Source of the DNA: Myxococcales bacterium
GTDB taxonomy: Bacteria; Myxococcota; UBA727; JABDBI01
Length of the DNA stretch: 64,000 bases
Direction: 5' to 3'
Assembly: GCA_023898405.1 (NCBI GenBank)
Contig: CP060221.1
Coordinates: 1,719,381-1,783,380 of the forward strand
Under the pieces are notes generated by a model. The model did not search any database and had not been told where the DNA came from. It saw only the letters and a program-made list of their open reading frames with translations. The position numbers were made by a program, and so were the translations under genes. Shown here one piece after another: positions 17,532 to 18,755 of this stretch. The first letter of the stretch is position 1. Every line of letters begins with the position of its first letter.

Positions 17532-18755
17532 ATGAACAATTCCAATTCCCTCCAACTTAAAAGAGTAATCACTCTTTATGCTATGGGTTTTTTGTTGATT
17601 TTTGGCTATTCTTTTGCTCGGCCTTGTATCGATTCCATTTACCTTGAGCATTATTCCAGTGACACATTGCCAAATGCTTGGTTGCTTACGGCTTTTTTGT
17701 CCGCGTTCGTAATAGCCATTTATAATCGTATCAATCAGCGATATTCGATTCTCTCGCTTTATGGTTGGCTTTCCCTTCTCTGTGCAGGAAGTTTGGCTCT
17801 ACTTTTGGCTGCCTATTTTTGGGGTTTCATTCCTGCAATTTTTATTCTCTATGTCTGGAAAGAAATTTACATGGTGGTTTTGGTCGAAACCTATTGGAGT
17901 TTTGCTGACATGGTTTTTTCCATAAGTTCAGCTCGTCACACCTATGGTTTGGCTATGGCCGTCAGTTCGCTTGGTGGGGTATTTGGCAATTTAATTGTAG
18001 GTCCTTTTGCGCGAACTGTCGGATCAAGATGGGCCCTTTGGTCATTGGTATTTTTGCTGATATTAGGATTTTTTATTGCCTATTGCGCGCGATCCATTGG
18101 CGATGAAAAACCACAAGAATCTAAAAAAACTGCAAAGATGGGAGTTGGCATTAAGACCTTGCTTCAGAGCAGGTATTTGGTTCCTCTGGCTTTGTTGGTG
18201 TGCACAGTTCAGGTAGTGACGGGCTTAATCGATTTTAAATTCAACTCGATGTTGCAGGAAAATTACGTCAATACGGATATGCGCACTGAAATGCTTGGCT
18301 ATATTCATGCAACGGTAAATGTTGTGGGGATTGCTATTCAATTGTGTACCGGCCCGATACTCAAGTTATTCGGTATTGCTTCGACTTTTAAGAGTATTCC
18401 TTTTCTATTGGCGGCCTGTCTTTTGGCATTTGTGATTCTGCCTAAATTTGCTTTGATGTTGGCGGTGAAAATTAGTAGTAAGGCTTTGGATTATTCTTTG
18501 TTGAGGGGAGTTAAAGAAATTTTATATATTCCCCTGTCTCGAGAAGAAAAAACCCAGGGCAAGGGGATAATAGATATTTTTATCTATCGTATAGCCAAAG
18601 GTCTTTCTTCGATTTTACTGCTCAGCTTGATTGCCATTGGTTTGAGTGCATATGTTATAGAGCTGTCTTTTGCTTTGGTTGTTATCTGGTTGATACTTGC
18701 CATCGTTATTGCTCGACGCTATCAATTATTGGTGGGTGCTGACGAAAATAGGTGA
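17532..18755 (+). CDS. TLC-family (ATP:ADP antiporter / nucleotide transporter-like) membrane protein, putative
   Basis: 407 aa polytopic membrane protein; C-terminal region KALDYSLLRGVKEILYIPLSREEKTQGKGIIDIFIYRIAKG resembles the TLC/NTT signature (AYIPLD...[17 protein letters not shown]). Shorter than canonical ~500-aa NTTs; substrate unknown. Confidence 0.5.
   Translation: MNNSNSLQLKRVITLYAMGFLLIFGYSFARPCIDSIYLEHYSSDTLPNAWLLTAFLSAFVIAIYNRINQRYSILSLYGWLSLLCAGSLALLLAAYFWGFIPAIFILYVWKEIYMVVLVETYWSFADMVFSISSARHTYGLAMAVSSLGGVFGNLIVGPFARTVGSRWALWSLVFLLILGFFIAYCARSIGDEKPQESKKTAKMGVGIKTLLQSRYLVPLALLVCTVQVVTGLIDFKFNSMLQENYVNTDMRTEMLGYIHATVNVVGIAIQLCTGPILKLFGIASTFKSIPFLLAACLLAFVILPKFALMLAVKISSKALDYSLLRGVKEILYIPLSREEKTQGKGIIDIFIYRIAKGLSSILLLSLIAIGLSAYVIELSFALVVIWLILAIVIARRYQLLVGADENR

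What the first reader, a model, noticed from the sequence alone, without database searches (positions are those of the whole stretch)
17532..18755. TLC-type nucleotide-transporter-like membrane protein
The C-terminal signature resembles ATP:ADP antiporters used by obligate intracellular bacteria for energy parasitism, but at 407 aa the protein is shorter than canonical ~500-aa NTTs, so it may move a different substrate.
Basis: partly seen in the sequence, partly recalled or inferred. Interest (0 to 1): 0.45.

Follow-up and report, generated by a model that had tools for sequence, protein, structure and literature searches.

The report
Compact divergent TLC-family transporter gene
This gene encodes a real but distant, shortened relative of the ATP/ADP transporters of intracellular bacteria; it belongs to a large untested subfamily of Myxococcota, sits in an operon with the vitamin B6 enzyme PdxH, and cannot be assumed to carry ATP.

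Summary
The ORF is exactly as described: 17532-18755 on the + strand, 407 aa. It passes the Pfam TLC model (68 bits against a cut-off of 21). Its closest solved structures are the chlamydial and plastid ATP/ADP translocators. A confident model shows a full 12-helix MFS fold.

It is not a canonical NTT. It scores 50 bits against a 387-bit cut-off for the NCBIfam NTP/NDP-exchanger model, shares about 19% identity with the solved NTTs, and branches apart from Npt1 and AtNTT1.

The missing ~100 residues are four loop insertions and the longer termini of canonical NTTs, not lost helices. The lysine that contacts the gamma-phosphate or Pi (AtNTT1 K527) and two tested acidic residues are kept. K155 is deleted, and about eight other Npt1-invariant basic residues are replaced.

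The protein belongs to a large uncharacterised "short TLC" subfamily. Relatives occur in 265 GTDB species genomes; the 80 best matches listed are nearly all Myxococcota or 'Deltaproteobacteria' MAGs, including large-genome lineages. In the window's sub-clade the gene forms a conserved operon TLC-(YfcH-like oxidoreductase)-PdxH.

Best reading: an importer of a phosphorylated, nucleotide-like anion of unknown identity. ATP/ADP exchange and B6-phosphate import are minority possibilities. It is an ordinary but uncharacterised new member of a known family.

The parts
17532..18755 (+). Gene for a 407-aa, 12-TM, short TLC-family (PF03219) MFS-fold transporter
   Evidence: ORF. Pfam TLC 68.4 bits against 21. 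AF2 model with pLDDT 89.3, pTM 0.87 and 12 long helices. Foldseek top five hits are all NTT1 structures (TM 0.81 to 9j3n). hhalign against Npt1 gives 99.8% probability over 399 columns.
18480..18602 (+). Codons 317-357: the TLC signature covering TM10, the following loop (cytoplasmic by my inference) and TM11 (K317..KEILYIPL..K340..GK344..D348..YR353..K356). It includes the equivalent of the gamma-phosphate/Pi-binding lysine, AtNTT1 K527 / PamNTT1 K446.
   Evidence: Alignments. Conservation across the clade: K317, K344, D348 and R353 are invariant, and position 356 is K in 27 and R in 18 of 45. The role of K527/K446 comes from PMC2606016. Numbering was verified.
17862..17888 (+). Codons 111-119 in TM4. 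E111 is the equivalent of AtNTT1 E245. It is flanked by the clade-specific K110 (codon 110, 17859-17861) and followed by the clade-specific intramembrane E119.
   Evidence: HMMER and hhalign alignments. Conservation: K110 in 44/45, position 111 E in 24 and D in 21, E119 in 43/45. Npt1 has A and L or V at the K110 and E119 positions.
18763..19401 (+). pdxH (pyridoxamine/pyridoxine 5'-phosphate oxidase). It starts 8 nt after the transporter's stop codon and is probably co-transcribed with it.
   Evidence: TIGR00558 equivalog at 253.6 bits against a cut-off of 180. Pfam PNPOx_N plus PNP_phzG_C. No terminator-like site lies between the two genes. The adjacency is conserved in 11 of 14 loci of the sub-clade.
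17208..17531 (.). 324-bp intergenic region shared by the divergent patatin-like gene and the transporter gene. It contains a promoter-like site at 17500-17528 and no recognisable riboswitch.
   Evidence: The promoter-like match TTAAAA-17-TATAAT (10 of 12) is, but such matches are no more frequent here than in shuffled sequence. The Rfam scan at E <= 10 finds nothing credible.

Best explanation
The gene encodes an inner-membrane secondary transporter of the TLC/NTT family (Pfam PF03219; TCDB 2.A.12 by my recollection; MFS fold). It has all 12 transmembrane helices but lacks the long loops and termini of canonical NTTs. It belongs to a large, uncharacterised, Myxococcota-centred 'short TLC' subfamily that is a distant sister of the characterised ATP/ADP and nucleotide transporters, not an orthologue of them. 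I infer that it works by alternating access and imports a phosphorylated, nucleotide-like organic anion (a nucleotide or a nucleotide-like cofactor). The phosphate-contacting half of the site, on TM10 and TM11, is retained from NTTs. The N-domain and the TM7/TM8 residues have been remodelled, and several positive charges have been lost. This suggests a substrate different from, and probably less negatively charged than, ATP4-. The clade-specific buried acidic residue E119 is a candidate proton-coupling site, which would give net uptake rather than obligate exchange. In the window's lineage the gene is co-transcribed with pdxH. Shown here: family membership, fold, residue conservation, phylogenetic separation and operon conservation. 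Inferred: class of substrate, direction of transport and coupling mode.
For: Pfam TLC scores 68.4 bits against a gathering score of 21. The clade profile matches CpNTT1 and AtNTT1 at E 3e-29, and the next best hit is only 2e-4. hhalign gives 99.8% probability with 399 aligned columns spanning all helices. The AF2 model has pLDDT 89 and 12 helices. Foldseek ranks the five NTT1 structures first, with TM 0.81 to ATP-bound 9j3n, ahead of generic MFS transporters. The equivalents of AtNTT1 E245, E385 and K527 are kept as E/D111, D234 and K/R356 in all 45 clade members. K527/K446 is the experimentally defined contact for the gamma-phosphate or Pi (PMC2606016). K409, K420, E421, K432, K436, D440 and R445 of Npt1 are also kept. 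The protein is distinct from canonical NTTs: TIGR00769 scores 50.2 against 387 bits, it forms a separate clade in the NJ tree, the K155 equivalent is deleted, and K48, K91, R183, K309, K313, K412 and K434 are replaced while K110, E119, R251 and R325 are gained. The subfamily is large and is not restricted to reduced genomes. It occurs in 265 GTDB species loci with GC from 0.33 to 0.74, including a 3.5-Mb Polyangiales chromosome, and more than 150 clusters at 50% identity score above 326 bits. Major et al. 2017 (PMC5381601) had already shown that most NTT diversity lies in free-living bacteria and is uncharacterised.
Against: No transport data exist for any member of this subfamily, so the substrate class rests only on homology and retained residues. 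I could not obtain the ligand-contact list from the NTT1 cryo-EM paper (Lin et al. 2025 is not held), nor model coordinates, so I do not know which of the changed residues actually line the pocket. [quoted passage not shown] The alignment around TM4 depends on the method: the MAFFT profile merge pairs Npt1 E157 with E119, while HMMER and hhalign pair it with E111.
Confidence: 0.7

Rival explanations
1. It is a classical class-I NTT: an obligate ATP/ADP(+Pi) antiporter used by a host-associated bacterium for energy parasitism.
For: The closest solved structures are ATP/ADP translocators. The basic residue that contacts the gamma-phosphate or Pi, and two tested acidic residues, are conserved. 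The window has features that suggest host interaction: an ankyrin-repeat protein, three patatin-like phospholipases, a PMP-like beta-helix protein, 39% GC, and a longest contig of about 2.5 Mb. JGI pipelines label relatives 'AAA family ATP:ADP antiporter'.
Against: TIGR00769 scores 50 against a 387-bit cut-off. Identity to NTT1 is about 19%. The protein falls in a separate clade. The K155 equivalent is deleted and about eight Npt1-invariant basic residues are replaced. The subfamily occurs widely in high-GC Myxococcota (one on a 3.5-Mb chromosome), where exchanging ATP for ADP with the environment makes no sense. From my own knowledge, even within the canonical clade only some paralogues exchange ATP/ADP; of the Rickettsia Tlc1-5 proteins only Tlc1 does (Audia & Winkler 2006, listed in the references of PMC5381601).
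Confidence: 0.13
2. It imports a phosphorylated vitamin B6 vitamer (PNP, PMP or PLP), or another small monophosphate cofactor, which the co-transcribed PdxH oxidase converts to PLP. The operon would then be a B6 salvage module.
For: pdxH starts 8 nt downstream and is a true equivalog. Across 70 non-redundant loci, the only recurrent same-strand neighbours are PdxH (11 loci) and a YfcH-like oxidoreductase (9 loci). The TLC-(YfcH)-PdxH unit persists in three sub-branches down to about 40% transporter identity, although the flanks otherwise differ. The net loss of about five positive charges relative to Npt1 would suit a monophosphate rather than a triphosphate. In one locus an NMT1/THI5-like gene sits directly upstream.
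Against: The linkage is confined to one monophyletic sub-clade (14 of 70 loci) and is absent from 3 of its 14 members and from the rest of the family, so shared ancestry could explain it. From my own knowledge, pdx genes are well known for sharing operons with unrelated genes in E. coli (pdxH-tyrS, pdxA-ksgA, pdxJ-acpS). PdxH is also the last step of de novo DXP-dependent PLP synthesis, so its presence does not imply salvage. No TLC protein is known to carry B6. I could not check whether the genome lacks pdxA, pdxJ, pdxS or pdxT.
Confidence: 0.1
3. It is a generic MFS transporter with a non-nucleotide role, for example a lysolipid or lipid-derived solute flippase or an efflux pump, linked to the neighbouring lipid genes (patatin-like phospholipase, AidB-like acyl-CoA dehydrogenase, fatty-acid hydroxylase, and a PKS in relatives).
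For: A weak MFS_1 match at 24.9 bits. Foldseek also hits NorA, MFSD2A, FLVCR1 and Spns2 at TM 0.6-0.7. An AidB-like gene lies divergently upstream in five sub-clade loci, and lipid genes cluster nearby.
Against: TLC clearly outscores MFS_1, which is below its cut-off. NTTs rank first by sequence, by profile and by structure. The NTT phosphate-contact residues are invariant. The lipid genes lie on the opposite strand or are not adjacent in the window, where about 7 kb containing an IS element and an ankyrin gene intervenes.
Confidence: 0.07

Closest known systems
Chlamydial Npt1 / plastid NTT1 ATP/ADP translocators (PDB 9j3n, 9j3o, 9j3j, 9j3l, 9j3m; NCBIfam TIGR00769)
   Same: Same Pfam family (PF03219) and the same 12-TM MFS fold, with TM-score 0.81. 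They share the TM10-loop-TM11 signature SK..Y.LF..KE..YIPL...K.GK..ID...R..K, including the lysine that contacts the gamma-phosphate or Pi. The equivalents of E245 and E385 are acidic.
   Different: About 19% identity and about 100 residues shorter. It lacks the 31-aa loop insertion before TM4, the 14-aa TM5-6 loop, part of the central loop, the 17-aa TM9-10 loop and the longer termini. It fails TIGR00769 (50 against 387 bits). The K155 equivalent is deleted. K48, K91, R183, K309, K313 and K434 are replaced, and the K412/D417 pair is reversed in charge to D320/R325. New invariant residues are K110, E119, Q227, R251 and Q270.
Uncharacterised single-domain NTT homologues of free-living bacteria, including 33 deltaproteobacterial sequences (Major, Embley & Williams 2017, PMC5381601)
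   Same: Single-domain PF03219 proteins that fall outside the characterised NTT clade. They occur in bacteria that are not obligately intracellular, and their function is unknown.
   Different: That survey predates most Myxococcota MAGs. I could not check whether this particular subfamily of about 400-425 aa, or its pdxH/yfcH operon, was included. Neither feature is mentioned in the paper's text.
PamNTT4 (NAD+/ADP exchanger) and other NTTs with non-ATP substrates (Rickettsia Tlc4/5, PamNTT2/3/5, PtNTT5)
   Same: They show that TLC proteins can carry cofactors or other nucleotides and can work as proton symporters as well as exchangers. That is the kind of functional shift proposed here (PMC5381601, and my own knowledge).
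   Different: I had no sequences for these proteins, so I made no direct comparison. They are about 500 aa long, and none is reported next to pdxH.
More distant short TLC/MFS-like proteins of 425-467 aa from other phyla (for example the Gemmatimonadota protein P0113, annotated 'MFS transporter')
   Same: Compact proteins that match PF03219 and are uncharacterised.
   Different: Only 23-25% identical to the window protein. They form a separate branch between the Myxococcota subfamily and the canonical NTTs.

Membership tests
Pfam TLC (PF03219) / AAA ATP:ADP antiporter family in the broad sense | Profile HMM score at or above the curated gathering threshold | tested here: met
   68.4 bits against 21, E 7e-19. 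All listed relatives down to about 24% identity, except P0108, also carry PF03219.
Pfam TLC (PF03219) / AAA ATP:ADP antiporter family in the broad sense | 12-TM MFS-type fold that is closest to NTT structures | tested here: met
   The AF2 model has pLDDT 89.3, pTM 0.87 and 12 long helices. The Foldseek top five are NTT1 structures, with TMq 0.81. Hydropathy is consistent with this.
Pfam TLC (PF03219) / AAA ATP:ADP antiporter family in the broad sense | Conserved signature spanning TM10, the loop and TM11 (SK..Y.LF..KE..YIPL..K.GK..ID) | tested here: met
   It is present at residues 317-357 and is invariant across 45 clade members.
Canonical NTP/NDP exchange transporters (NCBIfam TIGR00769; the Npt1/Tlc1/AtNTT1 clade) | Score at or above the curated cut-off of the model | tested here: not met
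   50.2 bits against a cut-off of 387.2.
Canonical NTP/NDP exchange transporters (NCBIfam TIGR00769; the Npt1/Tlc1/AtNTT1 clade) | Groups with characterised NTTs in a phylogeny | tested here: not met
   In the NJ tree of 88 sequences the Myxococcota short-TLC family is separated from Npt1 and AtNTT1 by a long branch, with another short group in between. This is a distance tree with a limited outgroup, not a maximum-likelihood analysis.
Canonical NTP/NDP exchange transporters (NCBIfam TIGR00769; the Npt1/Tlc1/AtNTT1 clade) | [quoted passage not shown] | tested here: met
   It corresponds to K356, which is K in 27 and R in 18 of 45 clade members. Its role is documented in PMC2606016. The numbering was verified.
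Canonical NTP/NDP exchange transporters (NCBIfam TIGR00769; the Npt1/Tlc1/AtNTT1 clade) | The other three mutagenised intramembrane charges of AtNTT1: K155, E245 and E385 (Trentmann et al. 2000; my own recollection, supported by the offset check) | tested here: not met
   E245 corresponds to E111 (E or D in 45/45) and E385 to D234 (D or E in 45/45), so both are kept. K155 (IPFLKTW) falls in a 2-residue deletion in every clade member (LP--xAW).
Canonical NTP/NDP exchange transporters (NCBIfam TIGR00769; the Npt1/Tlc1/AtNTT1 clade) | ATP/ADP counter-exchange activity | not testable with these tools
   This needs uptake and back-exchange assays.
Generic MFS (Pfam MFS_1, PF07690) | Profile score at or above the gathering threshold | tested here: not met
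   24.9 bits against 33.4. The fold and clan are shared, but the TLC model fits better.

The most novel reading that the evidence does not exclude
The pdxH-linked branch of the short TLC subfamily could be the first known bacterial importer of phosphorylated vitamin B6 vitamers (PNP, PMP or PLP). In that case the operon TLC-(YfcH-like oxidoreductase)-PdxH would be a salvage module that lets low-GC, possibly host- or prey-dependent Myxococcota take up cofactor phosphates that ordinary bacteria cannot import.
Probability: 0.1. Interest if true: 0.7.

Novelty: new member of a known kind. Interest (0 to 1): 0.3.

Why it matters
TLC/NTT genes are routinely read as a hallmark of energy parasitism in genome surveys. 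This gene shows why that shortcut is unsafe. It is a true TLC protein, yet it belongs to a subfamily found in hundreds of species, spread across free-living as well as reduced Myxococcota genomes, that lacks one of the four charges tested by mutagenesis and fails the exchanger model. Annotations such as 'ATP:ADP antiporter' for it are therefore over-predictions. The subfamily is compact at about 400 aa, models with high confidence, and has a conserved operon partner. That makes it a tractable target for learning what the uncharacterised majority of TLC proteins transport. If the pdxH link is functional, it would also address how bacteria acquire phosphorylated B6.

Tried and rejected
1. I looked for a riboswitch or other cis-regulatory RNA upstream. 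Rfam at E <= 10 on 17150-17600 gave only noise, and the only family in the whole window is RNase P RNA.

2. I looked for a second TLC gene or a canonical NTT in the window by tblastn with the window protein, Npt1 and a 'mid-group' protein. Only this gene was found.

3. I tried to obtain the ligand-contact residues from the NTT1 cryo-EM paper (Lin et al. 2025, Nature 641:797). It is not held under its DOI and no PMC id exists. I used the mutagenesis literature instead.

4. Foldseek against AFDB50, to find annotated or cultured carriers of the subfamily, was not possible because the library is not installed.

5. The MAFFT profile merge of the two alignments misplaces Npt1 E157 opposite E119. I rejected it for that segment in favour of the concordant HMMER and hhalign alignments, which preserve the spacing to the shared FW(G/S)FA motif.

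6. The promoter and terminator scans were uninformative. Promoter-like sites are no more frequent than in shuffled sequence, and the terminator-like hits lie inside coding regions.

7. The first tree run timed out in MAFFT's iterative mode. I reran it with fast settings.

8. Other neighbour clusters turned out to be synteny local to one clade or generic to Myxococcota, not family-wide linkage. These included Ser/Thr kinases, aminotransferase, GNAT, peptidases, NDH-2, HGLS and RsmB-like methyltransferase.

9. I searched the literature for short TLC proteins or host-associated reduced Myxococcota. Nothing specific came up.
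Full report
**Observation**

The window contains an ATG-initiated ORF at exactly 17532..18755 on the + strand, encoding 407 aa. 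About twenty close homologues begin at the same position, which supports the start codon. The product is 100% identical to a "hypothetical protein" (KC505_06075) of a MAG labelled Myxococcales (GCA_020430645.1). That protein's longest recorded contig is 2.5 Mb.

**Family assignment**

- Pfam TLC (PF03219) matches at 68.4 bits against a gathering score of 21. MFS_1 stays below its cut-off at 24.9 against 33.4 bits.
- A profile built from 45 clade members (A1) hits only the chlamydial and plastid NTT1 structures strongly (E about 3e-29). The next best hit is an MFS phosphate transporter at 2e-4.
- Profile-profile comparison with 28 Npt1-type exchangers (A2) gives 99.8% probability over 399 aligned columns, spanning clade positions 11-417 of 421 and Npt1 positions 22-508 of 532.
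- An AlphaFold model built on A1 is confident (pLDDT 89.3, pTM 0.87) and shows 12 long helices plus a short helix in the lysine-rich central loop.
- Foldseek against the PDB ranks the five NTT1 entries first, with TM-score 0.81 and 19% identity to ATP-bound CpNTT1 9j3n. Generic MFS transporters such as NorA, FLVCR1, MFSD2A and NupG follow.

**Why the protein is short**

The hhalign alignment shows that every helix has a counterpart. Canonical NTTs carry these extras:

- about 31 residues in the loop before TM4;
- about 14 residues in the TM5-6 loop;
- about 10 residues in the central loop;
- about 17 residues in the TM9-10 loop;
- longer N- and C-termini.

Hydropathy also fits a 6+6 arrangement. 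Shortness alone is therefore not evidence for a different substrate.

**It is not a canonical NTT**

- The NCBIfam NTP/NDP-exchanger model TIGR00769 scores 50.2 bits against a cut-off of 387.
- In an NJ tree of 88 sequences the protein sits in a large Myxococcota family. That family is separated from Npt1 and AtNTT1 by a long branch and by another group of short TLC-like proteins of 425-467 aa from other phyla.
- A single offset of +84 maps the 9j3j chain numbering onto the AtNTT1 precursor and reproduces K155, E245, E385 and K527 exactly. No other offset does.
[quoted passage not shown] It corresponds to K356, which is K in 27 and R in 18 of the 45 clade members.
- E245 corresponds to E111 (E in 24, D in 21). 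E385 corresponds to D234 (D in 43, E in 2).
- K155 (IPFLKTW) falls in a two-residue deletion present in every clade member.

The charge comparison is more general. Of the charged residues invariant in Npt1, these are retained: R45, D49, E61, K84, E157, K182, E305, R350, K409, K420, E421, K432, K436, D440, R445 and K448. These are changed:

- D46 to P, K48 to I, K67 deleted, K91 to I or L;
- E180 to T or S, R183 to W or H;
- K309 to N, K313 to Q or E;
- K412 to D, D417 to R, D428 to S, K434 to Q.

The clade has its own near-invariant residues: K110, E119, Q227, D249, R251, T252, Q270, D320 and R325. One caveat applies. The MAFFT merge pairs Npt1 E157 with E119, whereas HMMER and hhalign both pair it with E111. 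I follow the HMM-based alignments because they keep the spacing to the shared FW(G/S)FA motif.

The overall pattern is that the TM10/TM11 half of the translocation path is conserved, including the phosphate contact. The N-domain and TM7/TM8 are remodelled, with a net loss of about five positive charges and the gain of a buried glutamate in TM4.

**Distribution**

The family is large.

- The exhaustive profile search finds 14,708 representatives at E <= 1e-3 and 3,141 at E <= 1e-30. The best 150 all score 326-556 bits, and most are about 400-430 aa long.
- In GTDB species genomes, 265 loci encode a relative. The 80 best are nearly all Myxococcota or 'Deltaproteobacteria' MAGs. They include UBA796, Polyangiaceae and a 3.5-Mb Polyangiales chromosome, and their GC ranges from 0.33 to 0.74.
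- One MAG carries two copies (L047 and L056).
- A few contigs carry doubtful taxon labels: Methanobacteriota, and high-GC contigs labelled 'Rickettsiales' or 'Enterobacterales'.

This breadth argues against obligate energy parasitism as the family's general role. It agrees with Major et al. 2017, who found PF03219 genes in many free-living bacteria (33 deltaproteobacterial sequences), found almost all characterised NTTs in a single subfamily, and noted that at least one divergent NTT (SnNTT4) did not transport nucleotides (PMC5381601).

**Genomic context**

pdxH starts 8 nt after the transporter's stop codon. It is a true equivalog (TIGR00558, 253.6 bits against 180). No terminator-like site lies between the two genes.

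An unbiased clustering of all ORFs within 3.5 kb of the transporter gene in 70 non-redundant loci found only two recurrent same-strand neighbours. These are PdxH in 11 loci and a TIGR01777/YfcH-family oxidoreductase in 9 loci.

The pdxH-linked genes form one monophyletic sub-clade of 14 loci with GC 0.33-0.52, and 11 of them keep pdxH. The sub-clade has three branches:

- TLC-PdxH, the window's group, with transporter identity of 63-81% to the window protein;
- two branches with TLC-YfcH-PdxH, at 40-47% identity.

Intergenic gaps are roughly 2-50 nt where I checked them (some of my ORF calls overlap). In L018 an ORF called on the opposite strand overlaps the YfcH-PdxH spacer. The flanks otherwise differ, apart from a divergent AidB-like acyl-CoA dehydrogenase in five loci.

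The YfcH link recurs in three further loci without pdxH (L021, L043, L049). Genes further out are heterogeneous.

In the window, the stretch between the AidB-like gene and the transporter gene holds about 7 kb absent from L012 and L003. It contains an ankyrin-repeat gene and an IS1595-family transposase. No riboswitch precedes the transporter gene, and the window has no paralogue.

**Interpretation**

Shown here: a genuine, expressed-looking gene under conservation; TLC family membership; a full MFS fold; retention of the phosphate-contact lysine and of the TM10/11 signature; exclusion from the canonical exchanger clade; and a lineage-specific conserved operon with pdxH.

Inferred: the protein imports a phosphorylated, nucleotide-like anion. 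The loss of several lysines suggests a substrate that differs from ATP4- and is perhaps less charged. The clade-specific E119 is a candidate proton-coupling residue, which would give net uptake rather than exchange. Net scavenging would suit predatory or saprophytic Myxococcota as well as a host-associated organism. The window itself hints at host interaction through ankyrin, three patatin-like phospholipases, a PMP-like beta-helix protein, 39% GC and a contig of about 2.5 Mb.

I put about 0.7 on this general reading. The rivals are:

- classical ATP/ADP exchange, about 0.13;
- B6-phosphate (or similar monophosphate cofactor) import feeding PdxH, about 0.10;
- a non-nucleotide MFS role tied to the neighbouring lipid genes, about 0.07.

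The B6 idea is attractive because the operon outlives the surrounding synteny. It is weakened in three ways. The linkage is confined to one sub-clade. From my own knowledge, pdx genes often share operons with unrelated genes. And PdxH also serves de novo PLP synthesis.

**Comparison with known systems and verdict**

The protein works like, and is homologous to, the NTT/TLC transporters. It is a member of Pfam TLC, but it is not a member of the characterised NTP/NDP-exchanger group. Automated pipelines already call its relatives 'AAA family ATP:ADP antiporter' or 'Npt1/Npt2 family nucleotide transporter', and the existence of divergent NTTs in free-living Deltaproteobacteria is published.

It is therefore a new, uncharacterised member of a known kind. 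Its value is as a warning against reading TLC genes as proof of energy parasitism, and as a compact, well-modelled entry point to the untested majority of the family. Interest is modest, about 0.3. It would be higher only if the pdxH link proves functional.

Noticed in passing
window 8712-15983: About 7 kb lies between the AidB-like acyl-CoA dehydrogenase (7077-8711, -) and the patatin and transporter genes, and it is absent from relatives. In L012 the order FA-hydroxylase, AidB, TLC, PdxH is contiguous. The extra stretch holds an ankyrin-repeat protein (12039-13628, -), an IS1595-family transposase (13728-14381, +) and small ORFs. It looks like an insertion of mobile and effector-like genes.
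   Followed up: partly
window 15984-17207 (-), 43379-44794 (+), 45828-47036 (+), 51109-53058 (+), 26681-28243 (+): The window encodes three patatin-like phospholipases (the third is weak), a beta-helix protein with Chlamydia-PMP-like repeats, and a DUF7450 repeat protein. Together with 39% GC, this gene content suggests interaction with a host or prey.
   Followed up: partly
window 39022-39449 (-): Bacterial RNase P RNA class A at 291 bits. It is the only Rfam family above threshold in the window.
   Followed up: no
window 18489-18491 and 18504-18506 (codons D320 and R325): There is a charge-reversed pair in TM10. Npt1 has invariant K412 and D417, while the short clade has D320 (44/45) and R325 (42/45) at the aligned positions. 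This suggests a conserved salt bridge whose polarity has flipped.
   Followed up: partly
L017 (JABDBI010000035.1); L022, L023, L027, L033, L034 and others: A contig labelled 'Methanobacteriota archaeon' carries the bacterial TLC-YfcH-PdxH operon. Several contigs labelled uncultured Rickettsiales or Enterobacterales (GC 0.63-0.72 where computed) carry the Myxococcota-type short TLC gene. These taxon labels look unreliable and may reflect mis-binning.
   Followed up: no
L017 3780-4877 (+): An NMT1/THI5-like protein (PF09084) lies directly upstream of the TLC gene on the same strand. From my own knowledge, that family includes PLP-using HMP-P synthase and pyrimidine-binding ThiY. This is a single locus and may simply be a solute-binding protein.
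   Followed up: no
L008, L015, L017-L021, L043, L049 (gene directly downstream of TLC): A TIGR01777/YfcH-family oxidoreductase (epimerase plus DUF1731) of unknown function is a recurrent same-strand partner of the short TLC gene. This holds even in three loci that lack pdxH. It has been lost from the window's own branch.
   Followed up: partly
window 20058-21509 (-) and 21467-22036 (-): The mechanical ORFs for hslU (483 aa, TTG start) and hslV (189 aa) are longer than the genes called in the public record (459 and 179 aa), and they overlap. The true start codons probably lie further downstream.
   Followed up: no
L003/L004 1-591 and window 6160-7092: In the 81%-identical relative, a PKS of about 3,090 aa lies next to the fatty-acid hydroxylase and AidB-like genes upstream of the transporter. 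The window keeps the hydroxylase and the AidB-like gene. I did not examine whether the PKS lies further upstream.
   Followed up: no
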